This document shows positions 1-64,000 of a stretch of 64,000 nucleotides of DNA, in pieces (positions within the stretch are counted from its first letter, which is position 1; each line of letters opens with the position of its first letter). Source of the DNA: a virus; the IMG/VR virus record IMGVR_UViG_3300043773_002546, positions 1 to 64,000 of that record; one strand, 5' to 3'. The notes under the pieces were generated by a model. That model was given only the letters and a program-made list of their open reading frames with translations, did not search any database and was not told the origin of the DNA. The position numbers were made by a program, and so were the translations under genes.

Positions 1-1568
<1,568 letters not shown>

Positions 1569-5452: not shown

Positions 5453-5529
5453 CCGCCGCTCTGTTCCAACCGAATGCCTGCGTACCACGCAGGTCAGGCT
5501 GCGCGCCAGTAGGTTGGGCGGGGCGGCGG
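5453..5529 (+). ncRNA. Candidate structured RNA or terminator (nested stems)
   Basis: ccgccgc/gcggcgg, ccaacc/ggttgg and cctgcgt/acgcagg pair in nested order; followed by ttgtatttt. Confidence 0.4.
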
Positions 5530-48386: not shown

Positions 48387-49431
48387 ACCTGTGCTAGAAG
48401 CGTCGGATCACATCACGAACTATTTTAAGACGGCCGCGCCCCTATTGGCCGACAACCAGCGCGTGAAGATCACTGCCGCTGTTATGGAGCTGCTCCGATT
48501 TACCTCCGGCGCCGCGGTCGTAGCCCAGTGCGATCCCGCCCTGGCCCGCATAGGCTTGATCGAACTGCTCGGCGAGCTCTGCGGCATCGAGTGGGAGAAG
48601 ATTCCTTTCTCGATCACCAAGACAGCGCTGGGCAGTCCCGATCCGACAAGCGACGTGTTTGAGGCTTTGAAGACTTTCGCCAACGTGATCCAGGCCGACG
48701 CGGCGCTGGGCACTGAGGAGGTTTTTCGGTCTCTTTTTACGGTAGCGGAGCAGCCCGCAGCTCCGCCTTTGCAACCCAAGCGGGCACCCAAGGTTGCAGC
48801 ATCGGCCGACGTGGCCAAAATTTTCACGCGGTCGCCTAAGTTTAAGCCAGATTGCGGCGTGGAGCTGCTCAACTGGCAAAGCGAGTATCCCAACGGCGGC
48901 ATGGGCCCGCAGTTGTGGGGTCTACGGTTTGCCGAAAACGAAGATCAAGTTCAGGTGCTGTTGGAAACCGGCGAGCTGGTTAATCTGCCCGCGCAAATTT
49001 TTACCTTGGCTCGCACGACGGAACCGGCGGATTTTTCTGCTGTTCCGCTGGAATTGCTGGCTGCGGCGCGTTCTTTCTGGCCAGGCAAAGAGGCGGAGCT
49101 GGACACGCAATTTGGGCAGTTTACGCGGCCGTTGTATTACTGCCCATACGGAGCGCAAGCTATCGCGGCGTTGCGAGACGTTGCGAATAACCCAGCGTCT
49201 TATCCGCCACCAAACGCAGCGGCGGTGACTTTAAGCGTTGACGGCACTCCATATTTCGTTACGCTGGAAACCCGCGCATCAAAAACTGGCGTTTACGTAA
49301 CGGCCAAACTTATTGACGCAGCCGAAAATATTGTTATGCGATTGGACAAACCCCGGCAGTTTTCTGACTTGGGCGTGTATTTGTTCCCGCTTCCCGACAT
49401 GGTGATCGCCTTGGCGGTAAAGGAGCGCTGA
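48367..49431 (+). CDS. Hypothetical protein
   Basis: 354 aa ORF. Confidence 0.7.
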   Translation: MADATNEPVLEASDHITNYFKTAAPLLADNQRVKITAAVMELLRFTSGAAVVAQCDPALARIGLIELLGELCGIEWEKIPFSITKTALGSPDPTSDVFEALKTFANVIQADAALGTEEVFRSLFTVAEQPAAPPLQPKRAPKVAASADVAKIFTRSPKFKPDCGVELLNWQSEYPNGGMGPQLWGLRFAENEDQVQVLLETGELVNLPAQIFTLARTTEPADFSAVPLELLAAARSFWPGKEAELDTQFGQFTRPLYYCPYGAQAIAALRDVANNPASYPPPNAAAVTLSVDGTPYFVTLETRASKTGVYVTAKLIDAAENIVMRLDKPRQFSDLGVYLFPLPDMVIALAVKER

Positions 49432-50951
49432 TGTTTCGCAAGCCGCGGATTCTCTTGGTTGGCGACCTTCTTCTTGACGAGTGGGTGCACGTCAAAGCGC
49501 GCGCAGCAAATCCAGAAGGCGCGGCGGCAATTGTTAGCGGCACAGCCGACGACCGCGGCATGTCTTTGGGCGGCGTCGGAATCGCGGCTGCGCTTTTTAA
49601 ACGGCTTGGCGCCAGCGTCAAACTCATGTCGCGCCTGTCGAAGAACACGCACGGCTCGGTCGCGCACGCCCTGATGCACCGCGAACGAATCACGTGCAAG
49701 CACACAACGTTTGCCGACAACTGGACGATGCCACTTAAACGGCGTTACGTCAATGACGCAGGCGTGGTGATTTTTCGTTACGACGAGGAGCAACCGCTGG
49801 ATCAGATGCTGGAAACCGCGGGCACGCATTTTGACACAGCTCGCTATGACGAGCTTGTAAAACGTGCTGATTGCGTGCTGGTGCTTGATTACGACAAAGG
49901 TTACTTGAGCGGTTTTGGTCGTTACATGGTTGAGCGCGCCAGAGAAGCGAACACACCTATTCTGGTAGGCGCCAAACCAATCCGCCTGCGTGAGTATGCA
50001 GGCGCGGACCTGGTGAAGGTCAACGCGCACGAAGCTGCCGAGTTTCTTGACGCCGATTATGGAGACGTCACAGAGAATCTGCCCAAGGCCGCCGAATCTT
50101 TGTGCCACGCTGTATCTTCGCGTGCGGCGGTTATTACGGCCGGGTCATATGGCTCGGCTTGCGCGGTGATGACAAACAAGAACATCACCGCGTCTTTTTC
50201 GTTACCTGCGTTTCCTTGTTTTCCTGCAATTAAAAACTGTGTGGGAGCTGGCGACGCGTTTTTTGCGGGATTGACGATTGACTACGTCACGGCTCGCACA
50301 CGTTTGCGCGGTGCCGGGACGTTGCGCAACATGCGCGCGGCAATCACCGCGGCGGGCGCCGTTGCGGCCGTTTTTTTGGAGAGCGGCCCCGACGGCGTAT
50401 CGCCGCCGGTGCCTGTGCTGGCGCGCTACGATTTGCTGTGCGCTGAATCGCCAGACGCCAAGATCATGTCTCTCGACACCCTAGCCTGGCTTGCCCAGGC
50501 CTGGCGCAAGAACGAGGATGCCGTGGTTTTTACTAACGGCTGCTTTGATCTGCTACACGAGGGGCATTTGCATCTTTTGGACGAGGCCCACCGGCAAGGC
50601 ACACGCCTTATTGTCGCGGTTAACAGCGACGACAGTGTACGAACGTTGAAAGGAGAGGGACGACCAGTCCAACCATTTACGACGCGGGCCAAGCTGTTGG
50701 CGTCGTTGAGTTGCGTGGATGCGGTTGTCTCGTTGGATGAGGAGGATTTTGTTGGAAACACTGCGCTGCGCTCAATGCTTACGACCCTCCAGCCGGACGT
50801 TTTGGTCAAGGGCGACGAATACGCGGAAAGCGAAATCGTCGGCTGGGAAGAGATGGTCAAACGAGAGCCACCGGGGCGCGTGTGGCGCTGTCCCATGCTT
50901 TCCGGCCGCAGCACCACAAACGTTATACAGAAAGTCAAACACAACACATGA
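49431..50951 (+). CDS. hldE: Bifunctional heptose kinase/adenylyltransferase
   Basis: ILLVGDLLLD, GAGDAF (PfkB); VVFTNGCFDLLHEGH, VAVNSDDSVRTLKGEGRP, LVKGDEY. Confidence 0.9.
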   Translation: MFRKPRILLVGDLLLDEWVHVKARAANPEGAAAIVSGTADDRGMSLGGVGIAAALFKRLGASVKLMSRLSKNTHGSVAHALMHRERITCKHTTFADNWTMPLKRRYVNDAGVVIFRYDEEQPLDQMLETAGTHFDTARYDELVKRADCVLVLDYDKGYLSGFGRYMVERAREANTPILVGAKPIRLREYAGADLVKVNAHEAAEFLDADYGDVTENLPKAAESLCHAVSSRAAVITAGSYGSACAVMTNKNITASFSLPAFPCFPAIKNCVGAGDAFFAGLTIDYVTARTRLRGAGTLRNMRAAITAAGAVAAVFLESGPDGVSPPVPVLARYDLLCAESPDAKIMSLDTLAWLAQAWRKNEDAVVFTNGCFDLLHEGHLHLLDEAHRQGTRLIVAVNSDDSVRTLKGEGRPVQPFTTRAKLLASLSCVDAVVSLDEEDFVGNTALRSMLTTLQPDVLVKGDEYAESEIVGWEEMVKREPPGRVWRCPMLSGRSTTNVIQKVKHNT

Positions 50952-53850: not shown

Positions 53851-54629
53851 CTCTCTACGTGCTGCACAGCACACGAGCGCCAGAAATTGTTGCCGACGGC
53901 GTGACCGCGGCGCGCTGGGCCAGCCAATACCCGTGCCATGTCACGGTAGTCGTTGACGACGCGGCCGCCTATGCCGATTGTGGCGCGGACTTGATTGTCC
54001 CTAGCGCGGTGCCCGCAACGGGCCTGCTGGCCGACTGGCGGTTTTACGAAGGGCTTCAGGCCGCGATTGATCAGGGACTCGAGTTTGAGCAATCGATCTG
54101 TTTCCGAGACGACGCTTTGTTTTTGCAGAAAGGCCTGGATCGTTGGGCAGCGGAGACCTTCTACCGCGATGATGTGGCCTTGGCGGCAACCGCTGATCGG
54201 CATTACTACGCTGATAGTTTTTTGCGTGTGGCCGACCTGTTTTCGCGATGGCGCGTGCCGCATGAAATTTGGGATCGCGCACCGGCGGGGTTTACCGCGG
54301 TGAGTCAAGTGTTTTGCCTGCGGGCAACTTTAGCTAAGGAATTGTTTCATCGCCGCTTGCTGGTCCCGGAAGGTTTTAAAGAGTGGACGTTGCCGTTCTC
54401 TTGCTACGCTTCCTGGACCTGCCAGCTGCTAATGATGGCTTCGCGTTTGGTTGGCTCGCCTGACCGTCCGCAGGTGCCGTTTTATGTGAACGACGGCTGG
54501 GGCGGCATGTATAACGCTCCGCCATATCTGTTGCATGAAAATTTTCTGGTCTACTGGTCTGCGCGGCACGTTGCCGGATACAGCGAGGCGGACCTTCGCG
54601 ATTGGTGCAAAAAACGGAGGGACGCGTAA
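53835..54629 (+). CDS. Hypothetical protein, possibly a GT-A fold
   Basis: VVVDDA, FRDDALF; adjacent to the glycosyltransferase. Confidence 0.55.
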   Translation: MSAPLTLYVLHSTRAPEIVADGVTAARWASQYPCHVTVVVDDAAAYADCGADLIVPSAVPATGLLADWRFYEGLQAAIDQGLEFEQSICFRDDALFLQKGLDRWAAETFYRDDVALAATADRHYYADSFLRVADLFSRWRVPHEIWDRAPAGFTAVSQVFCLRATLAKELFHRRLLVPEGFKEWTLPFSCYASWTCQLLMMASRLVGSPDRPQVPFYVNDGWGGMYNAPPYLLHENFLVYWSARHVAGYSEADLRDWCKKRRDA

Positions 54630-55234
54630 TGAACGACCCGCGCATGTTGCAACTTTCGCCGCTGGAACGAAAGTTTTTTAAGCTTTACGTTGACGCGGTT
54701 AAGCGTGACTACCACGTGATGCAATCTGCCGTAGCGATGATGAACCCCAACGAACTGGGCGTTATTTGCCCAACGCACGCAACCCGCGTTGCCGACGGAA
54801 TTCAGGAATTCTATCTTGAATTTGACGAAGCGCTGACGCGCCTGAATTCTAAGCATCGTTTTACACGTCGCGCGATAACGCCGTCGCCCAGCGACAACGA
54901 GTTAATTGGCCTGACTACCGCAAGCTTTTTTAAATTAGTTGCCGTGGTCAAAACCGATTCGTCGCATTACGGCGATACTAAAGACGGCGGTTGGTTTAGC
55001 GGCGAGACAGAAAACTGGGAAAAGAATCTGGCTTCGCTCAAAAAATCTTTAACGCCGTCTGATAAACCGCCTCCGGTATCGCCTTTAGTTGCGGCAATGC
55101 TGCAATTATTTAACGCGCTGGTTAACAAAACCATGCCGTTTCAAATGTATTACCAACCGCCGCAAGCACAGGCAGAGGAAGAAGACTGGGAAGATCCCGA
55201 CGAAGATAACGCCGCGCCCGAAGATTTTGACTAA
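54629..55234 (+). CDS. Hypothetical protein
   Basis: TAATG coupling; AT-richer codons. Confidence 0.65.
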   Translation: MNDPRMLQLSPLERKFFKLYVDAVKRDYHVMQSAVAMMNPNELGVICPTHATRVADGIQEFYLEFDEALTRLNSKHRFTRRAITPSPSDNELIGLTTASFFKLVAVVKTDSSHYGDTKDGGWFSGETENWEKNLASLKKSLTPSDKPPPVSPLVAAMLQLFNALVNKTMPFQMYYQPPQAQAEEEDWEDPDEDNAAPEDFD

Positions 55235-55245
55235 GGGAGAAACCT

Positions 55246-56424
55246 GTGGAACCGTTGTTTGTATTTACCGCTGATTTGCATCTAGAGGACGGGGCTTGGT
55301 CGACCCGGCCCGGTATTTACGGCGACGCGTATTACAGCTTCGCCCAAATTATTGACTACTGCATCGAGCAGCAGCTGCCGTTGATCATGGGCGGCGACGT
55401 GCTCGAGAAAAAGAGCAACTCCGCGCGGCCAATCGCCAAGCTCTGCGAGGGCCTGTCCCGTATGCAGGCGGCGGGCGTGCCGGTGTACTACATCCAGGGC
55501 AACCACGAGTATGACCGAAATGCTCCCTGGCTTTCGGTTCACCCTTGGTCACAGCACATCCATCAACAGACCGTGGAGATCCAGGGCCACTCGATTTACG
55601 GGCTCGACTGGCTGCCCAAAGGCGAGATCCAGGAGGCTTTCAAGGCGATTCCCAGGGGCACGCACATTCTCGTCACACATCAGGTTTGGGAAGATCTCAT
55701 GAAGGGCGTGGGGCGGACCGAGTGCGCTATCGCCGACGTGCACAACACGCGCACGATTCTGGCGGGCGACTTTCACGTCACAACCACAATCGAGGGCGTC
55801 AACGCGGACGGCTTGCGCACAGAGATGCTTTCGCCTGGGTCGATTTGTATGCAGGACCTGGGCGAGAGTCCGGCAAAATGGTTTTTTGTGATCTGCCGCC
55901 ATCCCGAGGGCGGTTTTCATTTCGAACGCAAAACGCTCCAGACTCGATCGTTCGCCAAATTTGTGGTGAACGACCAGGAGTATCTCGACCAGCTTTGCGC
56001 TGGCGGTCTGGTCCAAGAGATCGAGTGCCTTGCCAAGCAAATTTCTACGGAAGCCAAAACCGCGGGCGTCGACAAGCCAATCGTACGAATCAAGTTTGAC
56101 AAGAACCTGCCCGACGCGTTTTTGCGGTTAACCACCGCGGCAGGCGACGCCTGCCACTTGTTCTGTGAGGCGCTGGCGGAACGCGGCCAAGCCGAGCGGC
56201 AGCAGACAACACGCAGCAGCGCTAAAAACGATCTTTTGGCGGCGCTAGCCGACTTGCTGGGCGATGAAACCCCGGCGTACAAATTAGCGGCCGCGTTGGT
56301 AACGGCCGAAGACCCGGCAAAAAAACTCGAAGGCGTTTTTGCAGAATTTCAAGAAGGGACAAGTCATGCAGTTGTTACGTTTGGAAGTCCGGAACTGGGT
56401 ACACCATCGACACCGGGTGTGTGA
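55246..56424 (+). CDS. sbcD: SbcD/Mre11-like metallophosphoesterase nuclease
   Basis: FTADLH, MGGDV, YIQGNHE, THQ, AGDFH, SPGS. Confidence 0.85.
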   Translation: MEPLFVFTADLHLEDGAWSTRPGIYGDAYYSFAQIIDYCIEQQLPLIMGGDVLEKKSNSARPIAKLCEGLSRMQAAGVPVYYIQGNHEYDRNAPWLSVHPWSQHIHQQTVEIQGHSIYGLDWLPKGEIQEAFKAIPRGTHILVTHQVWEDLMKGVGRTECAIADVHNTRTILAGDFHVTTTIEGVNADGLRTEMLSPGSICMQDLGESPAKWFFVICRHPEGGFHFERKTLQTRSFAKFVVNDQEYLDQLCAGGLVQEIECLAKQISTEAKTAGVDKPIVRIKFDKNLPDAFLRLTTAAGDACHLFCEALAERGQAERQQTTRSSAKNDLLAALADLLGDETPAYKLAAALVTAEDPAKKLEGVFAEFQEGTSHAVVTFGSPELGTPSTPGV

Positions 56425-58519
56425 ATTCACGCGCGGGTTGGTTGCCATTCTGGGCGAGAACGGCTCCGGCAAGAGCAGTCTCTTCGGCGCGCTGAAGTGG
56501 CTCCTGACCGGCGAGAACCCTAACTACGGCAGCAAGACTGACAACATCAGTCAGTACGCCAAAGAAGGCGAGCCGTCTTTCGCCAGCCTGGAGTTCGAAC
56601 ACTCCGGGCACATTGCCGTAGTGACCCGCCATCTTCTTCCTGAGAAGGAGCAAGCCACGCTTACCATTGACGGCGTGGAAGCAGGCCGGGGCGAGAAAGG
56701 CGTCACTGCCGGAATCGAAAAGCTCTTAGGCGTGGACGCCAAGTTTATCTCGCGTTTTATTATTGTCGGTCAAACGGAGATTTTCTCGTTTATCGACGAC
56801 AATCAGACCGACACAGATAAATTCTTCCAGCGGTTGTTTAACACCGCCAAGGCCGACAAGTGCCAGGACGTGATCGGCAAGAACATTTCCAAGATCCAGA
56901 TCCCCGAGGTGCTCAAGACTCCGGCGCAGCTGGACACGGAAATCCAGACTGCCAAGGACGCGCTGTCCGAAACGGACCGGCAGATTCACGGCTTGCCCGA
57001 CATGGCCGCCTTCCTGGCTGAGCAGAAAGAGCAGCAGAAGACGATTCAGGCCTGGCGGAACCGCGAAAAGGCCGCCGCTGAGCTGGCCAAGCTTGACGCC
57101 CAGCTCCAGACGGCCAACGCCCAATTAGAAACCGCAAAGGAAGACTCCGACCGCTACGAGTCAGACTTGGAGGCGCTCGAGGAGGCATCCCAGGGCCAAG
57201 AGGAGGCGATCACCGCCGCCCGCACGGCGCTGGGCCACTGGCAGAGCTACAAGAGCGTTGCCAAGTCGCGGGAGCAGCTTCAGACCACGCGTCAGGCGAT
57301 AGCCGCCTCGCGAGCCAAAGACCCCGAGCCGGAGAAGCCGGGAGCGCTTTCGGCGGAGGAACTAGCCAAGGACGCCCACAGCCGCCGTGAACGCATTAAA
57401 GAGATCAACGCGTTTATCCGTATGTTCGACGAGCATGGCGAGGCGGAGTGCCCGACCTGCCACACGCCGTCGAGCCAGCTGGCCGATCAGGTCGAGAAGC
57501 GCAAGGCGGAGCTGCTTGTCCGGCAGCAGGAAGAAACAGAACTGACCCTTGCGTACAGCGCGCAGTGGAAACTAGAAGAAGCCTGGAAACGTTGGGAGAG
57601 TCGCGAACGCGATCGGGCGCTTTCTGAACAGAAACTCGCCGCCGCCGAACAAAGCCTGCAAGACGTCCAGCCGCCGGTCTTGAGCGAAGCCGACCTGTCG
57701 CAGACGGTCACCGATTATGACTCGTTCCAGAAGGCCAAGCAGGACATCCTGCCGCTGGCGCAGGCGGCCAAGGTCCGCAATGCCCAGCTGGAGGGCGCGC
57801 TCGTGAGCCTGGCCGAACGGCGGAAGCAACTGCTCAATGATATCAATGAGGCAGAGGTTACCGAGGCCGACGCCACGCTGGCGCAGCAGCGGCTCAACCA
57901 TGTCCAAGAGCAATTTGCCCAGCGTACGAAGCTCGACACAGCTCGCGCTACGCTTGTGCATGCCCGCGACGCCCTTCAGGCCCAACGGGACGCCGCCGAG
58001 GCCGAAGTGACCTTGGCGGGTAGACTCAGGGAATGGACGCACGTCGCTGAAACAGCCCGCGAGGCCCTCAAGAATGCTCCGCGGCTGGTTGCTCAACGCA
58101 ACCTGCAACGGCTAGAAACAAGTATTAACGAACTGTTGCAGATTTTTCAGGTGAACTTCCAGGTGCGGGTTGCCGAGCGCGACACGCCTACGTTTATTGC
58201 GGAGTTCTACGATGGTCGCCGACAAGTTGCCCAGCGACTCTCCATCGGACAAAAAACTGTCTTGGCACTTGCGTTTCGAGTCGCCGTCAACGCCATGTTC
58301 GCCGAAGAAATCGGACTCTTGGCGCTGGATGAGCCAACTGCATCGCTGGATCAGCCGCGTATTCGGGCGCTAGCCCCGGTCCTGGAAAAGCTTCGAGAGC
58401 TTTCCACGGCTAAAGGGCTGCAATGTCTGCTTGTGACGCACGCGACGACCTTGTCGCACCTCTTTGAATCCGCTATTGAACTTGAACCCCCAGAGTTGCG
58501 TCATGCAAGCAGTAACTGA
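56366..58519 (+). CDS. sbcC: SbcC/Rad50-like ATPase
   Basis: GENGSGKSS, Q-loop, coiled coil with CPTC zinc hook, LSIGQK signature, LALDEPT, LVTH. Confidence 0.9.
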   Translation: MQLLRLEVRNWVHHRHRVCEFTRGLVAILGENGSGKSSLFGALKWLLTGENPNYGSKTDNISQYAKEGEPSFASLEFEHSGHIAVVTRHLLPEKEQATLTIDGVEAGRGEKGVTAGIEKLLGVDAKFISRFIIVGQTEIFSFIDDNQTDTDKFFQRLFNTAKADKCQDVIGKNISKIQIPEVLKTPAQLDTEIQTAKDALSETDRQIHGLPDMAAFLAEQKEQQKTIQAWRNREKAAAELAKLDAQLQTANAQLETAKEDSDRYESDLEALEEASQGQEEAITAARTALGHWQSYKSVAKSREQLQTTRQAIAASRAKDPEPEKPGALSAEELAKDAHSRRERIKEINAFIRMFDEHGEAECPTCHTPSSQLADQVEKRKAELLVRQQEETELTLAYSAQWKLEEAWKRWESRERDRALSEQKLAAAEQSLQDVQPPVLSEADLSQTVTDYDSFQKAKQDILPLAQAAKVRNAQLEGALVSLAERRKQLLNDINEAEVTEADATLAQQRLNHVQEQFAQRTKLDTARATLVHARDALQAQRDAAEAEVTLAGRLREWTHVAETAREALKNAPRLVAQRNLQRLETSINELLQIFQVNFQVRVAERDTPTFIAEFYDGRRQVAQRLSIGQKTVLALAFRVAVNAMFAEEIGLLALDEPTASLDQPRIRALAPVLEKLRELSTAKGLQCLLVTHATTLSHLFESAIELEPPELRHASSN
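57833..57850. repeat. Dispersed palindrome copy (ctcaatgatatcaatgag)
   Basis: 17/18 match; inside sbcC. Confidence 0.8.
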
Positions 58520-59435
58520 TGAAGTCGCCCTAAAACTCCATACCGACGCCAATGGCCATGTGTGGTACGTCCTTGGTATTGGGGGCGTGCACAACACGGG
58601 CATGATCGCCGACACGTTTTTGATGCAGCCTGTGATTCACGGCTTTGGCATTAGAGCGCGCCTTTTGGGCACGCCTAGAAACGCCGAGCTGATTACGCAG
58701 CTCTACCTGCGACGGCGTAAAAACGAAGTAGTGTCTGTTGAGGTGGCCGGACCAAATATCTGCGAGTCGCCTGCTGAGCTCAACGACCCCGCGCTGGTGC
58801 TTTTGCGCATGCGCAGCGCGCAGCTGTCTAGTGCCTGTGGCGGCTGGCACACGGTCACCGACAAGGATTATTTGACCTATGCTTTGCTGGCGCGGATGCA
58901 GCGCACGCATTTTCAGTTTGATACAGCCACTCAGGCGTACCTGCGGGCGCACCCAGTGTTCCACGCGATGACGCTCATTCCGACTTTGTCGAGTGAGCGA
59001 TTGGCGCAACTGCTCATTGATATCATTGACCCCCGCTGGTACGTAGATCGCCGGGCGCCGGAACGGGCCAGCAAGTTGGAGCTGTACTTGGGTTTAACAC
59101 CTCGTGCCCAGGCCAGTGTCTCTAATTCCGATCGTCTGATCACTCGTCCTCGGGAGTTGCGTTGCGCTACTGTGCTCGGAACCTGGAAGACTGCGGGCTA
59201 CCACGATGTTGACACGCAGGACCCCCGAAACTGGCTGTATCGCGTTTATGCGGCAGCCGGAGGCGGCCCACGTGGCGACCTGCGTGCGGGCCAGGCGCTT
59301 GTTCGCTATCTTCGGTACAACTGGCTGGACGCCCTGGAACGCCGCCCCGGTGTGCGTGACGGGTTGTTCGCGCCGGAGCTGTATTTCCGCACACCGGCTG
59401 AGATCGAAGTTTACCGCGAACACATGAAGAGCTGA
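58503..59435 (+). CDS. Protein with a Nop/IS110 C-terminal-like domain, no recognisable DEDD nuclease
   Basis: AHPVFHAMTLIPTLSSERLAQLLIDIIDPRWY...SKLELYLGLTP; C-terminal DLRAGQALVRYLRYNW. Confidence 0.55.
   Translation: MQAVTDEVALKLHTDANGHVWYVLGIGGVHNTGMIADTFLMQPVIHGFGIRARLLGTPRNAELITQLYLRRRKNEVVSVEVAGPNICESPAELNDPALVLLRMRSAQLSSACGGWHTVTDKDYLTYALLARMQRTHFQFDTATQAYLRAHPVFHAMTLIPTLSSERLAQLLIDIIDPRWYVDRRAPERASKLELYLGLTPRAQASVSNSDRLITRPRELRCATVLGTWKTAGYHDVDTQDPRNWLYRVYAAAGGGPRGDLRAGQALVRYLRYNWLDALERRPGVRDGLFAPELYFRTPAEIEVYREHMKS
59013..59030. repeat. Dispersed palindrome copy (ctcattgatatcattgac)
   Basis: 16/18 match. Confidence 0.75.
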
Positions 59436-59436
59436 A

Positions 59437-59688
59437 ATGGAAAATTTCTCCTGGACGACTGCTGCGCTGATCTTTGTGACCTACGTCATCATCGACGTGC
59501 TCTATGCGCTATACGTGCAGTCTGTCGCTGGGCAACGCCCAATGTCCGCAGCTGTGTTTGGCTCGGCAATCTACAGTTTGGGCGCCTACGGCGTGGTCAC
59601 ATACTCACACAATATGTGGTATCTGATTCCTTTGGCCAGCGGCGCTTTTCTGGGAACTTATTTGGTCGTCAAGTACAAGAAGGATTAA
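59437..59688 (+). CDS. Small multi-pass membrane protein
   Basis: Three hydrophobic segments in 83 aa. Confidence 0.7.
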   Translation: MENFSWTTAALIFVTYVIIDVLYALYVQSVAGQRPMSAAVFGSAIYSLGAYGVVTYSHNMWYLIPLASGAFLGTYLVVKYKKD

Positions 59689-59690
59689 CT

Positions 59691-60188
59691 GTGCTGGAGG
59701 TCACTATCACGCTGCGGTTTAACCGGCCATGCCTGGGCGCCGCCAAGCGCAAAAGGCACGGGAGCTCTGTATTTTGCTTTGACCGAGATCCAAGCGGACG
59801 GGTTATGTTCTTGCCCGCGGCCTGGCTTTCAGTTCTACGTTACGCGGCAAAGCTCGCTAACCGGCATCATACCGCGGTCAAGGACATAGACTGGTGCCCG
59901 GTCATCGTCGGAACTCCGCGCGAAGACTGGCGCCGTACGGTAGTCACCAATCACGGCCCAAACGCCAAGAGCCACTACGTCCTGCACGAGGCATTTCGAC
60001 CTGGCGACGACGTCGTGATTTCAGCTGTGTTGCCCGACGAGATTAATTTGCCGGAGTTCACGCATTTGCTGACGCTCGTGGGCAAATACAAGGGGTTTTC
60101 CCCGTTTAACAATCCGCAGGAAAAGTATGGGACATTTGAAGTCGTATCAATCGAACCCGTCGCCGGACCCGGGATCGACGGCAACTAG
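59691..60188 (+). CDS. Stand-alone RAMP/Cas7-like protein (putative)
   Basis: GTG start after AAGGA; VTITLRFNRPCLG, FDRDPSGRVMFLPAAWLSVLRYAA, HEAFRPGD, LLTLVGKYKGFSP...KYGTFEVVSI. Confidence 0.5.
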   Translation: MLEVTITLRFNRPCLGAAKRKRHGSSVFCFDRDPSGRVMFLPAAWLSVLRYAAKLANRHHTAVKDIDWCPVIVGTPREDWRRTVVTNHGPNAKSHYVLHEAFRPGDDVVISAVLPDEINLPEFTHLLTLVGKYKGFSPFNNPQEKYGTFEVVSIEPVAGPGIDGN

Positions 60189-60189
60189 A

Positions 60190-61737
60190 ATGAGCGCCCC
60201 ACAGCAGCCCGTGGTGATTACCCGGGTCAACAACGTATTGACGCTCTCTGGCCCGGATAACGCGCCGCTGGATCCGCAATTGATCCGTCGGTTGACGCAT
60301 GATTTGCGCTATGAGCACATGGAAGCCGTCAACGGCCCTGCCCGCCGCGACCCGATTACCGGGCAAAAGTTGTTCTTCCAAACCAAGGAGTACAAACTCT
60401 ACCGGGTTGAGAACGGCAAGGTCGTCGTGCTTTCGGGTTATCTTGCCCGAATGGTAAACCGCCTGCGCAAGCTAGGCTGCCCGGCAACGCTGGTGAACGC
60501 CAGCCCGCCGCGGAAACGTCCTGATTGCTACACGCCGCAGTGGGATAAGCTGGCAGGCAAAATTGAATTCCGCCCGCGGCAAGAAGAATGCCTGCGGACG
60601 ATTGCCCGTGTACCCTGCGGGATTATTAAAGCCGTTACGGGTTTCGGAAAAACGACATTAATTGGCGCCGCGGCGCAACTGTTTCCCGATGCTCGCATCG
60701 ACGTGATCACCAAGAGCGTCGACGTCGCCGAGCGTATCGCGCGCAGCCTGCGGCGGTTTGTGCCCAAAGTAGGCCGCATCGGCGATGGCTGGAAAGACAG
60801 GCAAAGGGTGACGGTGATTACCGCAGGCAGTCTGCAGCACGCCGACGGCGACGCTGATTTTATGTTCGCTGACGAAGTTCACCAGCTGGCCACGGTAAAT
60901 TTTTCCACAGCCCTGGCTAGCCGTTATCGCAATTCGCGAAACTTTGGTCTTTCAGCAACGCCTTACGCGCGCATGGATAACGCGCACCAGGTGCTTGAGC
61001 CGCTTTTTGGCCCAATGGTCTTTGAGCTGACGTACCAACAAGCGGTCACGTTAGGCCTGGTTGTTCCCGTGCGCGTTCGCTGGTTGCCCATGCGATTGCG
61101 TACGAATCCGGCTGAACGTTACAGCCAGCGTGTGGCCCGCAAACGCTACGGTGTTTGGACAAACTACGAGCGAAACCAAATCATTGCCTCCGCTGTGAAC
61201 GAGTATCCGGCCGACACGCAGGTGTTAATCCTTGTAGAAACAATTGAGCATGCGGTTCACCTGGGCGCCCAGCTTCCCGACTTTACCCTGATGTACGGGT
61301 CAATGACGCCTACGGACGCTGTCTATTACAAGAAGCACAAGCTTTTGCCGGAGAATTACTCGCCACTGACCTACGAGCAGAAGCACGACATGCGTGCAGC
61401 GTTTGAAGCCGGGACGCTGAAAAAAGTGATCGCGACTGACGTGTGGGCAACTGGAGTTGACTTCGAGCAGCTTTCTGTTCTAGTACGCGCCGACGATCGC
61501 GACAGCGACATTGTCGACGTGCAGGGGCCGGGACGCGTCAGCCGCGTTTACACCGCGCCCGACGGTACCCGCAAAGACTACGGCGAGGTCGTCGACTGCA
61601 TGGACACCTTTGACCCAACCTTCTACCGGAAGAGTCTAGGACGACGTAATAGCTACAAAGAATTGGGATGGGAGCAAAATTGGCATGACGCCCAAAGAAG
61701 TTGGCGTGGCAGTGGCGGCCAGGGAACTGGCGCCTGA
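60190..61737 (+). CDS. SF2 DEAD/DEAH-type helicase (UvsW-like)
   Basis: RPRQ, AVTGFGKT, DEVH, GLSATP, VIATDVWATGVD, QGPGRVSR. Confidence 0.88.
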   Translation: MSAPQQPVVITRVNNVLTLSGPDNAPLDPQLIRRLTHDLRYEHMEAVNGPARRDPITGQKLFFQTKEYKLYRVENGKVVVLSGYLARMVNRLRKLGCPATLVNASPPRKRPDCYTPQWDKLAGKIEFRPRQEECLRTIARVPCGIIKAVTGFGKTTLIGAAAQLFPDARIDVITKSVDVAERIARSLRRFVPKVGRIGDGWKDRQRVTVITAGSLQHADGDADFMFADEVHQLATVNFSTALASRYRNSRNFGLSATPYARMDNAHQVLEPLFGPMVFELTYQQAVTLGLVVPVRVRWLPMRLRTNPAERYSQRVARKRYGVWTNYERNQIIASAVNEYPADTQVLILVETIEHAVHLGAQLPDFTLMYGSMTPTDAVYYKKHKLLPENYSPLTYEQKHDMRAAFEAGTLKKVIATDVWATGVDFEQLSVLVRADDRDSDIVDVQGPGRVSRVYTAPDGTRKDYGEVVDCMDTFDPTFYRKSLGRRNSYKELGWEQNWHDAQRSWRGSGGQGTGA

Positions 61738-62416
61738 TTGGCATACGCGGCTGAGCCCAAAACAGCTGGCCGCGTACATTCGGTATCAATTCATTCGGTT
61801 ACACGAGAACGAGCATGACTGGGACGCCCCTGCGCACAACCGCAGGCGGACCCACTGGGACGGCGGCAAGGACAGCTACGGCGTAAACCACACGCCGGTC
61901 TGGACACGGATTGCCAACCTGATCCGCGACAACCACGCCGATCCCGGGCTATGGGTCCAGGCGCATTTTTCGCCGATCGCCGTGCTGAAGGCGGGCGTCC
62001 AGCATTCGGGCATGCCCGAGATTCGACCAACGCGGCTGTGCGCTGGGCAGTCGCTAGGAATTTACAACGAGTACTGCGAACAGTTGCCTGCAATTTTGTC
62101 GCAGAACTTTGAGATCGCCGGGGGAACACTGGCCAAGCAGATCAAGGCCACAGACACCTTTCGCATGGAGCCGGAAGACCAGATCTTCTACTGCATCTGC
62201 GACGAAAGCACCGTGTCGGCCTCGCCCTTTTTCCGTCACGCCTTCGCTGCCCAGCTGGACTGCTGGCGCGGCGTAGAGCGTTATCTTTGGCTGGCAGCGC
62301 TGGATTACGAAGCGCAGCAACGCCTTTACGATGCCGCGGTTGAACCATGGTGCGTTACGGAACTCTTACAGGAATCAGTGAAAGATATTAGGCGTCATTG
62401 GGAGCATTACGCATGA
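61685..62416 (+). CDS. Hypothetical protein upstream of the DnaB-like helicase
   Basis: 243 aa; ATGA overlap with the next gene. Confidence 0.7.
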   Translation: MTPKEVGVAVAARELAPDWHTRLSPKQLAAYIRYQFIRLHENEHDWDAPAHNRRRTHWDGGKDSYGVNHTPVWTRIANLIRDNHADPGLWVQAHFSPIAVLKAGVQHSGMPEIRPTRLCAGQSLGIYNEYCEQLPAILSQNFEIAGGTLAKQIKATDTFRMEPEDQIFYCICDESTVSASPFFRHAFAAQLDCWRGVERYLWLAALDYEAQQRLYDAAVEPWCVTELLQESVKDIRRHWEHYA

Positions 62417-64000
62417 GCTTGAGCGAAGGACCGCGCGATCGTATTCATCATGATGTGCCGCTGCAGCCCGACGAAGTCGTCGCGCTGTTTCGCGGGTTTA
62501 TCCGTCACCCCAGTCTCATGGACGAGGGGTTGCGGCTCGGCTTGACTGCCGAACACTTTAACGGCCCAGGCGAATATCGCTTGGCCGTTCTTTTTACCGT
62601 GCTGCACAACGCTTTTGAGCAGTATGGCACGTATACCAAAGAAATGATTCTCACCAGCTTGCGGTCTAACCAAACCAGCGGCCAGGTGGCAATTGGCCCA
62701 GCGGACATCGAGTTCCTCCTGGGCGACGAAACCAATCAAGGCTTTATCAGCGAGACTTTTGACGAGCCCCGCGTTGATGCCGAAGCCGCCAAGGCCGAAC
62801 GTCGGTTCTGCGAGAACCTTCTGCGGCGATTCATGCGGGTGCGGCTCATCAAACAATCGCTGCAACATCAGCTTGGCGCGGCAGCGGCGGCCTCGGCCCC
62901 GACAAATATCGCTGAGCTGCTGGGCCGCTTTCACCGCGTCAGTCAGCGGGTCGAGCACCTAGGCGCTGATGTCCGTAACTCGGCGATGATGCCCGCTTTC
63001 GGCGAACAGATCGAGCTGCCGCCGCCAGCGATTCCCGTAGGCTTGCCTTGGCTCGATCAGTACACAGGTGGTATCCGTACTGGCGACGTGATCGGCGTGC
63101 TGGGCCCATACGGCGGCGGTAAATCGACGCTGTTGACCGTGGCGGCCGTGCGGATTGCGCATCACTTCGCTCTCAACGGCGAGAACAAGCTTTCCGTGTT
63201 CATCGGCTATGAGGACGGCGGCGCCAAATGGAACCACATGTTCTGGAGCGCTGCTGCCCGCATTGAACGCAAGGTGTTTACTGACTACGGCACTGACATT
63301 TGGGCGCAATTCTCGACGCGCGAGACGCTTAAAGACTACGACCGGCTGCTGCCGGAGAACCGCAACGGCGAGATCATGTTTGGCGAGCGCGAACGCTGGG
63401 AGGCGGCTATCCCTTGGCTCAACCGGCACTTTGTGTTCTTGGATTTCTCCTGTAACTCCGACACCGGCGGGCAGGGAGCAGGCGGCGTGCCAGAAATCGT
63501 CAACGCCCTGGAGCGGCTGGCTGAGGAACGCGGTATGGAGATTGGTTTCGTGGCCATCGACTACGCGGGCATTCTTGTCGAGCGCATGATGGGTTCTCGC
63601 AGCACGGATCTGAAAGACATCATTCGTCCAATCAAGAAAGTGCCAGACGACTTGCGCACGCTCTTGGCAGTGCCTACGGGCGCCACGGTAATGCTCGCGC
63701 ATCAGCTGGCTCCCGGCGACATCAAAGGCCGTCCGGTCTATAAGTACGTCGGCCACGATGACGCGTCGGGCTCCAAAAGTTTTGCCGAGAATGTGCATTC
63801 GTGCATGGGCATCAACCACCGCGACCACTCGACCAACGTTTCCACGATTTACTGGTCAAAGATCCGCGCTTTGCGGCCAGTCTCGCCTTATGGCCTGATC
63901 AAGATGGACGATCACGTTGTGGACGTGCATCTGGTCAACGACGATTACGTTGCCTGCCCAACGACCCGCGCCATCATCCGCAAGGGCGACGTGCGCGTGG
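62413..64000 (+). CDS. dnaB: DnaB-like replicative helicase, 3' truncated by the window edge
   Basis: Translated by hand (absent from the track): GLPWLDQYTGGIRTGDVIGVLGPYGGGKST, GYED, VAIDYAG, LAHQL. Confidence 0.8.
   Translation, partial: MSLSEGPRDRIHHDVPLQPDEVVALFRGFIRHPSLMDEGLRLGLTAEHFNGPGEYRLAVLFTVLHNAFEQYGTYTKEMILTSLRSNQTSGQVAIGPADIEFLLGDETNQGFISETFDEPRVDAEAAKAERRFCENLLRRFMRVRLIKQSLQHQLGAAAAASAPTNIAELLGRFHRVSQRVEHLGADVRNSAMMPAFGEQIELPPPAIPVGLPWLDQYTGGIRTGDVIGVLGPYGGGKSTLLTVAAVRIAHHFALNGENKLSVFIGYEDGGAKWNHMFWSAAARIERKVFTDYGTDIWAQFSTRETLKDYDRLLPENRNGEIMFGERERWEAAIPWLNRHFVFLDFSCNSDTGGQGAGGVPEIVNALERLAEERGMEIGFVAIDYAGILVERMMGSRSTDLKDIIRPIKKVPDDLRTLLAVPTGATVMLAHQLAPGDIKGRPVYKYVGHDDASGSKSFAENVHSCMGINHRDHSTNVSTIYWSKIRALRPVSPYGLIKMDDHVVDVHLVNDDYVACPTTRAIIRKGDVRV

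What the first reader, a model, noticed from the sequence alone, without database searches (positions are those of the whole stretch)
58503..64000. Candidate new RNA-guided or strand-exchange module embedded in the phage replisome operon
Seen: sbcD-sbcC-[Nop-like]-[3TM]-[RAMP-like]-[SF2 helicase]-[unknown]-[DnaB-like], all + strand with gaps of 2 nt or less, or overlaps. Inference: relatives of two separate RNA-guided lineages sit next to a helicase and an Mre11/Rad50 pair. This suggests guide-directed origin firing, recombination-dependent replication or targeting of competitor DNA. The arrangement loosely parallels type IV CRISPR (Cas7-like plus helicase, no Cas1).
Basis: inference. Interest (0 to 1): 0.72.

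Follow-up and report, generated by a model that had tools for sequence, protein, structure and literature searches.

The report
Array-less TasR-like and Cas7-like phage pair
In the DNA replication and repair operon of an uncultured 197-kb lake phage, two small basic proteins fold like the guide-RNA holders of TIGR-Tas/IS110 and of CRISPR systems and sit next to a helicase, but no guide-RNA array and no cutting residues were found, so these folds seem to have been recruited for core DNA metabolism.

Summary
The window has a tight + strand operon: sbcD, sbcC, a 310-aa protein C, an 83-aa membrane protein D, a 165-aa protein E, an SF2 helicase F, an unknown G and a DnaB-like H. It continues into primase, UDG-PolA and RecA-like genes.

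Both fold guesses survived structure searches.
- C is a RuvC-like domain plus a Nop-like domain. Its only matches with Z of 8 or more are TasR (Z 10.5), TasH and IS110 recombinases.
- E is a minimal RAMP. Its best matches are Csm3, Cmr4 and type VII Cas7 (Z up to 10.6), and the G-rich loop is in the canonical place.
- F is XPB-like, not DinG-like.

The order sbcD-sbcC-C-E-F-G-H is kept in all 35 non-redundant related loci, down to 30% identity of E. The 3TM gene D is an insertion seen only in this window.

The RNA-guided reading has no support. Four complete genomes of the clade hold no TIGR, CRISPR or VIPR-type array. The genes have no flanking intergenic space, C has no embedded-RNA signal and no conserved acidic catalytic set, and no Pfam RAMP or Nop model matches.

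Best reading: nuclease-dead, array-less derivatives of guide-RNA-holding folds that work with the helicase in recombination-dependent replication. This scan has already found the same module in other genomes of this phage clade.

The parts
54629..55234 (+). up1: conserved acidic protein (pI 4.8) with an SSB-like acidic C-terminal tail (...PEDFD), directly upstream of sbcD. Possible phage SSB; this is inference.
   Evidence: sequence, pI. Homologues upstream of sbcD in relatives. No Pfam or PHROG hit.
55246..56424 (+). sbcD / Mre11-like nuclease
   Evidence: Pfam Metallophos 5.6e-8; phrog_100 SbcD-like.
56366..58519 (+). sbcC / Rad50-like ATPase
   Evidence: Pfam SMC_N 5e-17; phrog_77 SbcC-like 1e-33.
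58503..59435 (+). C: 310-aa basic protein (pI 9.25) with an N-terminal RuvC/RNase H-like domain (about 1-110) that lacks conserved acidic residues, and a C-terminal Nop/IS110-RBD-like helical domain. This is a TasR-like architecture. Family-wide motifs are GGWH(113-116) and DPRW(176-179).
   Evidence: AF2 model pLDDT 90. VIA: TasR 9mty_B Z 10.5 (228 aligned), TasH Z 8.1-8.8, IS621/ISCro4 Z 8.1-8.4, next best 6.8 or less. Foldseek: IS621 E 4e-3. Conservation in 34 sequences.
59437..59688 (+). D: 83-aa hydrophobic (2-3 TM) protein. It is inserted between C and E in this genome only and is not part of the conserved module.
   Evidence: hydropathy. Absent between C and E in all other loci; homologues elsewhere in L006 and L038.
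59691..60188 (+). E: 165-aa basic (pI 8.8) minimal RAMP (Cas7-like). It has a single RRM core and a G-rich loop (G131-x-Y-x-G-x-S-P...Y-G-x-F-x-V) between helix 2 and the last strand. Family invariants: E3, F10, G16, W68, H99-E100, P115.
   Evidence: AF2 model pLDDT 78.6. Foldseek top hits are all Cas7-type RAMPs. VIA: Csm Z 10.2-10.6, Csm3 5yjd_B Z 9.8 (rmsd 3.7, 134 aligned), Cmr4, type VII Cas7; 112 chains with Z of 8 or more. Alignments.
60190..61737 (+). F: 515-aa SF2 helicase/translocase of the XPB type (phage 'DNA helicase' phrog_16). It is the most conserved gene of the block.
   Evidence: Pfam ResIII 1e-9 and Helicase_C; phrog_16 1e-33. Closest solved sequences are archaeal XPBII/Rad25, E 9e-10. 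67-82% identity in near relatives.
61685..62416 (+). G: 243-aa conserved protein of unknown family, always between F and the DnaB-like gene. Possible helicase loader; this is inference.
   Evidence: No Pfam, PHROG or PDB match. Atlas hits below 0.9. Present in all loci.
62413..64000 (+). H: DnaB-like replicative helicase, cut by the window end. It is followed in the genome by a DnaG-like primase, UDG-PolA, an unknown gene, and RecA-like and SprT-like genes.
   Evidence: phrog_19 1e-15; Pfam DnaB_C and AAA_25, weak. Downstream genes.

Best explanation
C, E and F are fixed core components of the recombination and replication machinery of this phage clade. They are not a programmable defence system.

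- C is a nuclease-dead, array-less relative of TasR/IS110-type proteins.
- E is a minimal Cas7-like RAMP.
- F is an XPB-type duplex-opening helicase.

Proposed mechanism. After SbcCD processes DNA ends, or at an origin or stalled fork, F opens or branch-migrates the duplex. E coats the exposed single strand, or an RNA/DNA strand of an R-loop or D-loop, in the extended way Cas7 holds a guide. C uses its Nop-like and dead RuvC-like domains to clamp the branched or hybrid DNA without cutting it. G then loads the DnaB-like helicase H, and primase and PolA take over.

Shown: gene order and its conservation, the folds, the basic charge, the lack of catalytic residues and the lack of any guide array.

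Inferred: nucleic-acid binding, the order of events, and any physical contact among C, E and F.
For: 1. Position. The genes are packed with gaps of 2 nt or less, or overlaps, inside sbcD-sbcC-...-DnaB-primase-PolA-RecA.
2. The block sbcD-sbcC-C-E-F-G-H is collinear in 35 of 35 non-redundant loci from about 200-kb phage contigs, down to 30% identity of E.
3. E (62-77%) and F (67-82%) are the most conserved genes of the block, against sbcCD at 46-74%, C at 45-60%, G at 37-57% and H at 40-57%. This fits essential, constrained machinery. In some relatives F carries an in-frame LAGLIDADG (intein-like) insertion.
4. Folds. C matches TasR at Z 10.5, and only Tas/IS110 chains reach Z 8. E matches Csm3, Cmr4 and type VII Cas7 at Z 9-10.6.
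5. C has no conserved acidic set. Only D176, in the C-terminal domain, is kept across 34 sequences.
6. There are no TIGR, CRISPR or YNNGG arrays in this genome or in three complete relatives. The conserved intergenic segments that show no coding-like mismatch pattern are tRNAs, a tmRNA, a terminator hairpin and three unassigned stretches.
7. C, E and F are basic (pI 9.25, 8.8, 9.5) while sbcCD is acidic.
8. F's closest solved relatives are XPB duplex openers.
9. The E family has 298 clusters at 50% identity. All listed hits are small stand-alone proteins. It occurs in only one of 185,579 cellular species genomes, on a 13-kb MAG contig.
10. Xu et al. 2026 (bioRxiv 10.64898/2026.09.09.750476) independently note an array-less branch of compact TasR proteins in densely packed viral genomes.
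Against: - No experiment or expression data exist. No RNA run holds this DNA.
- The similarity is structural only. No sequence model of Nop, RAMP or Cas families matches, so common descent is likely but not proven.
- A single non-repetitive guide RNA, or guides taken from ordinary transcripts, would escape every scan I ran.
- Catalytically dead TasR and TasA proteins are still RNA-guided repressors (Xu et al. 2026), so a dead nuclease does not exclude guidance.
- The specific roles given to C and E (clamp, strand coat) are inference from the folds.
Confidence: 0.5

Rival explanations
1. This is a true RNA-guided module with an unrecognised guide source. C (TasR-like) and E (Cas7-like) would hold a non-arrayed guide, such as a single ncRNA encoded elsewhere, an RNA embedded in a coding region, or phage transcripts. 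With helicase F they would direct R-loop formation at the phage's own origins, or target competitor or host DNA.
For: - Both folds are otherwise known only as guide-RNA holders.
- Dead TasR and TasA proteins act as RNA-guided repressors, and Xu et al. leave open whether array-less viral TasR proteins use 'an alternative guide RNA source'.
- Some VIPR types pair a minimal RAMP with a helicase, and some encode a single vrRNA.
- A conserved, structured non-coding stretch of unknown role exists at genome 132035-132234.
Against: - Four complete genomes hold no array of any known type.
- The genes have no intergenic flanks.
- C shows no extended synonymous-site constraint. The peaks in E and F are short: one lies at the F start and one is a 15-nt patch.
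- The fixed position in a core replication operon, with very high conservation, differs from the patchy, fast-evolving distribution of defence and interference systems.
- No variable 'spacer-like' sequence was seen.
Confidence: 0.22
2. The resemblance carries no shared mechanism. C would be a RuvX/YqgF-like or resolvase-derived DNA-binding accessory with a helical domain. E would be a generic RRM-type accessory of the helicase, such as a loader, regulator or processivity factor. Neither would handle nucleic acid in a Cas7-like or Nop-like way.
For: - There is no sequence-level match to RAMP or Nop families.
- Z scores near 10 are only moderately above the tool's stated background of 7-8.
- RRM and RNase H folds are very common.
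- The N-terminal domain of C also matches YqgF, RuvX and RuvC at Z 5-7.
Against: - About 40 of the top 50 chains for E, out of 48,161 representatives, are CRISPR RAMPs, and 112 chains reach Z 8.
- E has the RAMP-specific G-rich loop at the canonical position, and a ...R-D-P...P-S-x-W...R stretch (consensus) that by my recollection parallels the region after the first strand of Csm3.
- For C, the only two-domain matches, and the only ones with Z of 8 or more, are TasR, TasH and IS110, followed by a clear drop.
Confidence: 0.15
3. This is counter-defence by mimicry. The phage would make guide-less copies of Cas7-like and Tas-like proteins to soak up host crRNAs or tigRNAs, or to poison host effector complexes.
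For: Phages are known to encode Cas-like decoys and anti-CRISPRs (general knowledge). Both proteins lack catalytic residues and arrays.
Against: - Anti-defence genes are usually accessory, variable and located in early or moron regions.
- These genes are universally kept, translationally coupled core operon genes, more conserved than sbcCD.
- E is only remotely similar to any Cas7, too distant to substitute in a host complex.
Confidence: 0.05

Closest known systems
TIGR-Tas TasR (TaTasR, PDB 9MTY; Faure et al. 2025, PMC12045711), especially catalytically dead TasR and the array-less compact viral TasR branch noted by Xu et al. 2026 (bioRxiv 10.64898/2026.09.09.750476)
   Same: Two-domain architecture: an N-terminal RuvC-like domain plus a Nop-like domain of about 300 aa (Z 10.5, 228 residues aligned). 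Phage-encoded. Like the branch Xu et al. describe, it sits in a densely packed viral genome with no room for an array, and it appears to lack a long coiled-coil hairpin.
   Different: No TIGR array of either kind in four genomes. No conserved acidic catalytic residues. No sequence-level match to Nop or to PDB Tas chains. Fixed inside a replication operon and always followed by a RAMP gene, which the Tas papers I read do not mention. I could not verify that C belongs to Xu et al.'s branch, because no sequences or IDs were available.
IS110-family bridge-RNA recombinases (IS621, PDB 8WT6/8WT9; ISCro4, 9T56)
   Same: Whole-length structural match to the RuvC-like domain plus the RNA-binding domain (Z 8.1-8.4, about 230 aligned; Foldseek probability 0.97-1.0).
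   Different: No conserved DEDD set. No transposon behaviour: the position is the same in 35 loci. No upstream non-coding region for a bridge RNA, since C overlaps sbcC by 17 nt.
CRISPR Cas7-type RAMPs of type III and type VII (Csm3, Cmr4, type VII Cas7)
   Same: RRM core, thumb-like hairpin and G-rich loop before the last strand. Z 9-10.6 to Csm3, Cmr4 and type VII Cas7, for example Csm3 5yjd_B at Z 9.8, rmsd 3.7 A, 134 aligned.
   Different: Smaller, at 165 aa. No CRISPR array or other cas genes. No match to the Pfam RAMPs or NCBIfam cas models. The Asp at the Csm3 catalytic-loop position is not invariant. A family-specific invariant His-Glu (H99-E100) of unknown role is present.
Vipr proteins of VIPR systems (bioRxiv 10.64898/2026.04.26.720920)
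   Same: A phage-encoded, minimal single-RRM RAMP without CRISPR context. Some VIPR types have a helicase as the accessory gene.
   Different: No vrRNA: there are no runs of 5 or more YNNGG units in four genomes. No long intergenic flanks. A core replisome context rather than a small accessory locus. A structural comparison with Vipr was not possible, because it is not in the PDB copy at hand.
Phage T5-type recombination module (SbcCD-like D12/D13 with the XPB-like branch-migration helicase D10) and the T4 gp46/47-UvsW logic
   Same: An Mre11/Rad50 pair and an SF2 XPB-like helicase sit together in a phage replication and recombination operon. The comparison with T5 and T4 rests on my own knowledge.
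   Different: As far as I recall, those modules have no TasR-like or RAMP-like genes between the nuclease and the helicase.

Membership tests
TIGR-Tas (TasR) | Nop-domain fold with an N-terminal RuvC-like domain | tested here: met
   VIA: Z 10.5 to TasR 9mty_B over residues 8-309; TasH Nop domain Z 8.1-8.8. Only Tas/IS110 chains reach Z 8. The match is structural only.
TIGR-Tas (TasR) | Associated TIGR array (dual-repeat or stem-loop units) next to or inside the gene | tested here: not met
   TRF and a custom interspaced-repeat scan of the 197-kb genome and three complete relatives found only coding repeats with spacings that are multiples of 3. Gene junctions are 2 nt or less. No synonymous-site constraint in C.
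TIGR-Tas (TasR) | Four conserved acidic RuvC catalytic residues (active TasR) | tested here: not met
   In 34 family members the only acidic position kept in 80% or more is D176, which lies outside the RuvC-like domain. Dead TasR proteins exist in the literature, so this does not exclude the wider family.
TIGR-Tas (TasR) | Coiled-coil dimerisation domain | tested here: inconclusive
   The model has no pair of long helices; the longest helix is 255-278. 228 of 294 TasR residues align. Residue-level superposition was not available.
TIGR-Tas / Nop superfamily | Sequence-profile match to Nop (PF01798) or to solved Tas chains | tested here: not met
   No Pfam hit. PF01798 finds nothing in the genome at E of 1 or less, while the controls ring. 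The profile of C against PDB sequences gives no Tas or IS110 hit at E of 10 or less.
IS110 transposase | DEDD catalytic set, mobile-element context and an upstream bridge RNA | tested here: not met
   No conserved DEDD. Same operon position in 35 loci. C overlaps sbcC, so there is no upstream non-coding region.
CRISPR RAMP / Cas7 | RRM core with a G-rich loop between helix 2 and the last strand, plus a thumb hairpin | tested here: met
   Secondary structure runs b1-a1-b-b-a2-loop-b4. The G131xYxGxSP...YGxFxV loop is conserved; distant members read GxYxGLSPxGxxxGxGRFxV. Z 9-10.6 to Csm3, Cmr4 and type VII Cas7.
CRISPR RAMP / Cas7 | Sequence-profile match to RAMP or cas models | tested here: not met
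   Pfam and NCBIfam scans of 37 near and 18 distant members at E of 10 or less give no RAMP or cas family. PF03787 finds nothing in the genome.
CRISPR-Cas system (any type, including type IV) | CRISPR array and partner cas genes (large subunit, Cas5, Cas6; DinG in type IV) | tested here: not met
   No arrays. The neighbours are sbcCD, an XPB-like helicase and replisome genes. F matches XPB, not DinG/XPD.
VIPR system | vrRNA made of 9-16 YNNGG repeats with a structured tail, in the long intergenic flanks of vipr | tested here: not met
   No run of 5 or more YNNGG units (one bad unit allowed) on either strand of four genomes; shuffled sequence gives 0-2. The flanks are 1-2 nt.
VIPR system | Vipr protein: structural or phylogenetic placement with Vipr rather than Cas7 | not testable with these tools
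   No Vipr structure or sequence is in the libraries at hand. BFVD gives three viral RAMP-like models at E 2e-5 to 2e-3.
SbcCD, XPB-type SF2 helicase and DnaB-like helicase | Family profile matches | tested here: met
   The DnaB_C match is weak in Pfam but reaches 1e-15 in phrog_19.

The most novel reading that the evidence does not exclude
The trio is a guide-array-less RNA-directed R-loop machine for replication initiation or restart. The TasR-like and Cas7-like proteins would capture phage transcripts, or one unrecognised ncRNA, as guides. With the XPB-like helicase they would install them in duplex DNA, creating the primer or loading site for the DnaB-like helicase. That would be RNA-guided effector folds working as a replication initiator rather than in defence or transposition.
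Probability: 0.12. Interest if true: 0.9.

Novelty: new variant of a known kind. Interest (0 to 1): 0.62.

Why it matters
TasR/IS110/Nop proteins and Cas7/Vipr RAMPs are the protein cores of two separate lineages of RNA-guided systems. Here both are fixed side by side, array-less and without cutting residues, between an Mre11/Rad50 nuclease and an XPB-like helicase in the core replisome operon of a widespread clade of about 200-kb lake phages.

This bears on an open question raised by Xu et al. 2026: what do array-less viral TasR proteins do, and where would a guide come from? It also offers a concrete partner set (E, F, G) to test.

Either outcome is informative. If the proteins work without a guide, these folds have a life in basic DNA metabolism, which matters for ideas on the origin of RNA-guided systems. 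If they do carry an RNA, this would be a new, non-arrayed way of guiding that is tied to replication.

Tried and rejected
1. Complex prediction with C, F and E (E as partner, own alignments) scored 0.00 in both runs. The tool gave no verdict, so this is not evidence either way.
2. The look-up of sequencing runs listed no RNA holder. The DNA is held by lake-water and freshwater metagenome runs from several studies.
4. tblastn of C and E against 50,697 GenBank phage records gave no match.
5. Loci for the most distant E-family members could not be fetched. The alignments were too divergent for patterns, or the scans found nothing in viral, metagenome or genome contigs. In everything I reached, C stays with them.
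6. Guide-RNA hunt:
   - TRF, interspaced k-mer chains and YNNGG runs found nothing non-coding.
   - Rfam found only a DUF3800-VIII RNA far away.
   - The promoter and terminator scan of the operon was at or below chance.
   - Most conserved 'intergenic' stretches look coding, with phase-biased mismatches, or are tRNAs, a tmRNA or a terminator hairpin.
7. Embedded RNA in coding sequence: the synonymous-site scan shows no signal in C. The peaks lie at the 3' end of E just before the F start (expected for translational coupling) and at a 15-nt patch in F.
8. E as the phage SSB: Pfam SSB and gp32 models find nothing in the genome. However, the conserved up1 protein has an SSB-like acidic tail, so I did not favour this idea.
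9. The Atlas search for G gave no hit at 0.9 or above. The PDB sequence search for G gave nothing.
10. Supplement tables of Faure et al. were searched for contig IDs of this clade, without result; the table was cut when stored.

Full report
**What is there**

The window is the first 64 kb of a 197,309-bp IMG/VR virus record that is 96% complete. From 55246 to the window end, eight + strand genes follow each other with overlaps or gaps of 2 nt or less:
- sbcD, 55246-56424
- sbcC, 56366-58519
- C, 58503-59435, 310 aa
- D, 59437-59688, 83 aa
- E, 59691-60188, 165 aa, GTG start
- F, 60190-61737, 515 aa
- G, 61685-62416, 243 aa
- H, from 62413

Pfam and PHROGs confirm sbcD (Metallophos), sbcC (SMC_N, phrog_77 at 1e-33), F as an SF2 helicase (ResIII, Helicase_C, phrog_16 at 1e-33) and H as DnaB-like (phrog_19 at 1e-15). 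C, D, E and G match no family.

Downstream, the genome continues with a DnaG-like primase, a family-A polymerase with an N-terminal UDG-like domain, an unknown 475-aa protein, a RecA-like protein and a SprT-like protein. An RNase T-type exonuclease lies upstream.

**The two fold claims**

I built alignments from metagenomic homologues: 309 hits for C and 255 for E, all unnamed and many on contigs of about 200 kb. I then predicted both structures.

E (pLDDT 78.6) folds as strand-helix-strand-strand-helix-loop-strand.
- Foldseek against the PDB returns only Cas7-type RAMPs at the top: Csm3, Cmr4, type VII Cas7 and Cas7-11, with E about 1e-4.
- An independent all-against-all search of 48,161 representative chains gives Csm at Z 10.2, Cmr-beta at 9.4, type VII Cas7 at 9.3 and Csm3 at 8.9. 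About 40 of the top 50 are CRISPR RAMPs.
- A second look finds 112 chains with Z of 8 or more, for example S. epidermidis Csm3 5yjd_B at Z 9.8, rmsd 3.7 A, 134 aligned.
- The conserved G131-x-Y-x-G-x-S-P...Y-G-x-F-x-V segment lies exactly where RAMPs carry their G-rich loop. In distant family members it reads G-x-Y-x-G-L-S-P-x-G-x-x-x-G-x-G-R-F-x-V.

C (pLDDT 90) has an RNase H/RuvC-like N-terminal domain and a helical C-terminal domain.
- Its only matches with Z of 8 or more are TasR 9mty_B (Z 10.5, 228 residues aligned over model residues 8-309), TasH (Z 8.1-8.8, C-terminal domain only) and the IS110 recombinases IS621 and ISCro4 (Z 8.1-8.4).
- Scores then drop to 6.8 or less, for proteins that match only the N-terminal domain.
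- Foldseek ranks IS621 first (E 4e-3, probability 1.0).

Neither holds at the level of sequence. No Pfam or NCBIfam RAMP, cas or Nop model matches any of 55 family members or anything in the genome, although positive controls ring. Profiles of C and E find no related PDB sequence.

**Linkage**

I fetched 48 and then 66 related loci from IMG/VR, plus one from JGI metagenomes. After removing duplicates, I searched their ORFs with family HMMs.

The order sbcD-sbcC-C-E-F-G-H is kept in all 35 non-redundant loci, down to 30% identity of E. C ends within a few to about 60 nt of the start of E almost everywhere. The exceptions are:
- a 1.7-kb, three-ORF insertion in L022 and L030;
- a 400-nt gap in L114;
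- this window, where the 83-aa hydrophobic gene D is inserted.

D is therefore not a module member. Its homologues in L006 and L038 lie upstream of the operon.

E (62-77%) and F (67-82%) are the most conserved genes in near relatives. sbcCD is at 46-74%, C at 45-60%, G at 37-57% and H at 40-57%.

A profile search of 1.84 billion representatives finds 298 clusters of E relatives. All listed hits are small stand-alone proteins of 62-259 aa, with no fusions. Among 185,579 cellular species genomes, only one 13-kb MAG contig holds a relative. I could not fetch loci for the most distant members.

**Is it RNA-guided?**

The defining partner of Tas, IS110, Cas7 and Vipr proteins is a guide RNA. I looked for one in several ways.
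- TRF and a custom scan for interspaced short repeats found only coding repeats (collagen-like and acidic, with spacings that are multiples of 3) in this genome and in three complete relatives that I downloaded whole.
- There are no runs of 5 or more YNNGG units, the vrRNA signature from bioRxiv 10.64898/2026.04.26.720920, in any of the four genomes. Shuffled sequence gives 0-2.
- The genes have no intergenic flanks.
- Promoter-like and terminator-like sites in the operon are at or below chance.
- Because Xu et al. report tigRNAs embedded in tas coding sequence, I scanned codon alignments of 35-36 relatives for excess synonymous-site conservation. C shows none (maximum window excess 0.10). The two peaks are the last 15 codons scored in E, just upstream of the F start, and a 15-nt patch in F.
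- Conserved intergenic DNA elsewhere is mostly unannotated coding sequence, four tRNAs, a tmRNA and a terminator hairpin. Three stretches remain unassigned; the longest, about 200 nt at genome 132035-132234, is moderately structured.
- No RNA sequencing run holds this DNA.

**Catalysis**

Across 34 diverse C sequences, the only acidic position kept in 80% or more is D176. It sits in a DPRW motif of the C-terminal domain. The positions where a RuvC fold carries its acidic set are not conserved. C is therefore best described as nuclease-dead.

In E, the Asp at the place of the Csm3 catalytic loop is not invariant. The family has its own invariant H99-E100 of unknown role.

C, E and F are basic, with pI 9.25, 8.8 and 9.5.

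**The helicase**

F's closest solved relatives by sequence are archaeal XPBII/Rad25 (E 9e-10), not DinG/XPD as in type IV CRISPR. From my own knowledge, XPB-like helicases next to SbcCD-like genes are known from phage T5 (D10 with D12/D13), where D10 migrates branches.

In several relatives F carries an in-frame LAGLIDADG insertion. I read this as intein-like, which is typical of essential replication genes.

**Interpretation**

The best-supported reading (confidence 0.5) is that C, E and F are core factors of recombination-dependent replication or repair, built from folds that elsewhere hold guide RNAs. In this picture:
1. F opens or migrates DNA.
2. E coats an exposed strand.
3. C clamps branched or hybrid DNA without cutting.
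4. G and H follow.

Only the anatomy, the conservation and the absences are shown. The biochemical roles are inferred.

The main rival (0.22) is a true RNA-guided module with a non-arrayed guide. This cannot be excluded, because dead TasR and TasA proteins are RNA-guided repressors, and because Xu et al. explicitly leave open whether array-less viral TasR proteins use another guide source. Mere fold convergence (0.15) and anti-defence mimicry (0.05) are less likely.

A three-chain complex prediction gave no verdict and counts for nothing either way.

**Relation to what is known**

- C works like, and probably descends from, the TasR/IS110 group. It fails the array, catalytic and sequence-profile tests for TIGR-Tas and IS110.
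- It matches the description of the 'compact TasR lacking the coiled coil, in densely packed viral genomes, no array' branch in bioRxiv 10.64898/2026.09.09.750476. I could not verify identity with that branch.
- E is a minimal RAMP like Vipr and Cas7, but it has no vrRNA, no crRNA and no sequence-profile match.
- None of the three papers I read mentions a Tas-like and RAMP-like pair or a replisome context. A full-text search for TasR together with RAMP and phage found nothing relevant.

**Earlier notes of this scan**

This scan has already reported the same module on other genomes of this phage clade, with similar verdicts. I used those notes as leads to the VIPR and Xu et al. papers and tested their claims on this DNA. 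One earlier claim, that only the RAMP-helicase pair persists in distant phages, is not borne out in the 35 loci I could reach, and I could not test it further out.

**Verdict**

This is a new variant of known kinds (an array-less, dead TasR-like protein plus a mini-RAMP plus an XPB-like helicase in a replisome operon). Interest 0.62.

Noticed in passing
window 5455-5527 (+): Rfam DUF3800-VIII RNA motif above the gathering score (51.7 bits, E 1e-6), in a 204-nt gap between ORFs.
   Followed up: no
window 54629-55234 (+): A conserved acidic protein directly upstream of sbcD ends in ...EEEDWEDPDEDNAAPEDFD, an SSB-like acidic tail. Pfam SSB and gp32 models find nothing in the genome, so this may be the phage SSB.
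   Followed up: partly
window 59437-59688 (+); L006:4605-4880; L038:4589-4837: The 83-aa hydrophobic gene lies between C and E only in this genome. In two relatives its homologue sits upstream of the operon, so it is a small gene that has moved.
   Followed up: partly
L022:10287-13046 (also L016, L026, L027, L028): The helicase F gene is about 1.2-1.4 kb longer in these loci. In L022, the only one scanned, the in-frame extra part holds a LAGLIDADG domain, so it is probably an intein with a homing endonuclease.
   Followed up: partly
L022:8258-9995 and L030: A 1.7-kb insertion between C and E. In L022 it reads as three ORFs without any Pfam match. It is the only large break of the C-E junction in the clade.
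   Followed up: partly
window 61147-61191 (+), inside F: A patch of unusually conserved synonymous sites (GGCATCTGGACAAAC) overlaps the only sigma-70-like match in the operon (61156-61184). It may be an internal promoter or a protein-binding site.
   Followed up: partly
genome G000:C1 98001-126354 (beyond the window): The phage encodes tRNA-Lys, tRNA-Glu, tRNA-Met, tRNA-Asn and a tmRNA (101987-102335, tag GAYAPALAA).
   Followed up: no
genome G000:C1 132035-132234 (beyond the window): A roughly 200-nt non-coding stretch conserved in relative G002 (72% identity, no codon-phase bias in mismatches). It is moderately structured (z about -3) and of unknown role.
   Followed up: partly
window 572-1363 (+) and genome 108763-111040: Long collagen-like Gly-X-Y coding repeats with periods of 9, 18, 36, 45 and 54. 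They mimic interspaced arrays in repeat scans.
   Followed up: no
window 1-274 and genome 195899-197290: Large tandem repeats at both ends of the record: 147 bp x 1.9 at the start, and 183 bp x 3.5 and 138 bp x 3.2 at the end. They may be related to the genome termini.
   Followed up: no
window 49431-50951 (+): A bifunctional PfkB kinase plus cytidylyltransferase-like protein (HldE-like), a sugar-nucleotide enzyme encoded by the phage.
   Followed up: no
L154 (RGVZ01000116.1, MAG 'bacterium WB9_2_064'): The only hit for E among 185,579 species genomes is a 13-kb MAG contig with 71% identity. It is probably a phage contig binned into a bacterial MAG.
   Followed up: no
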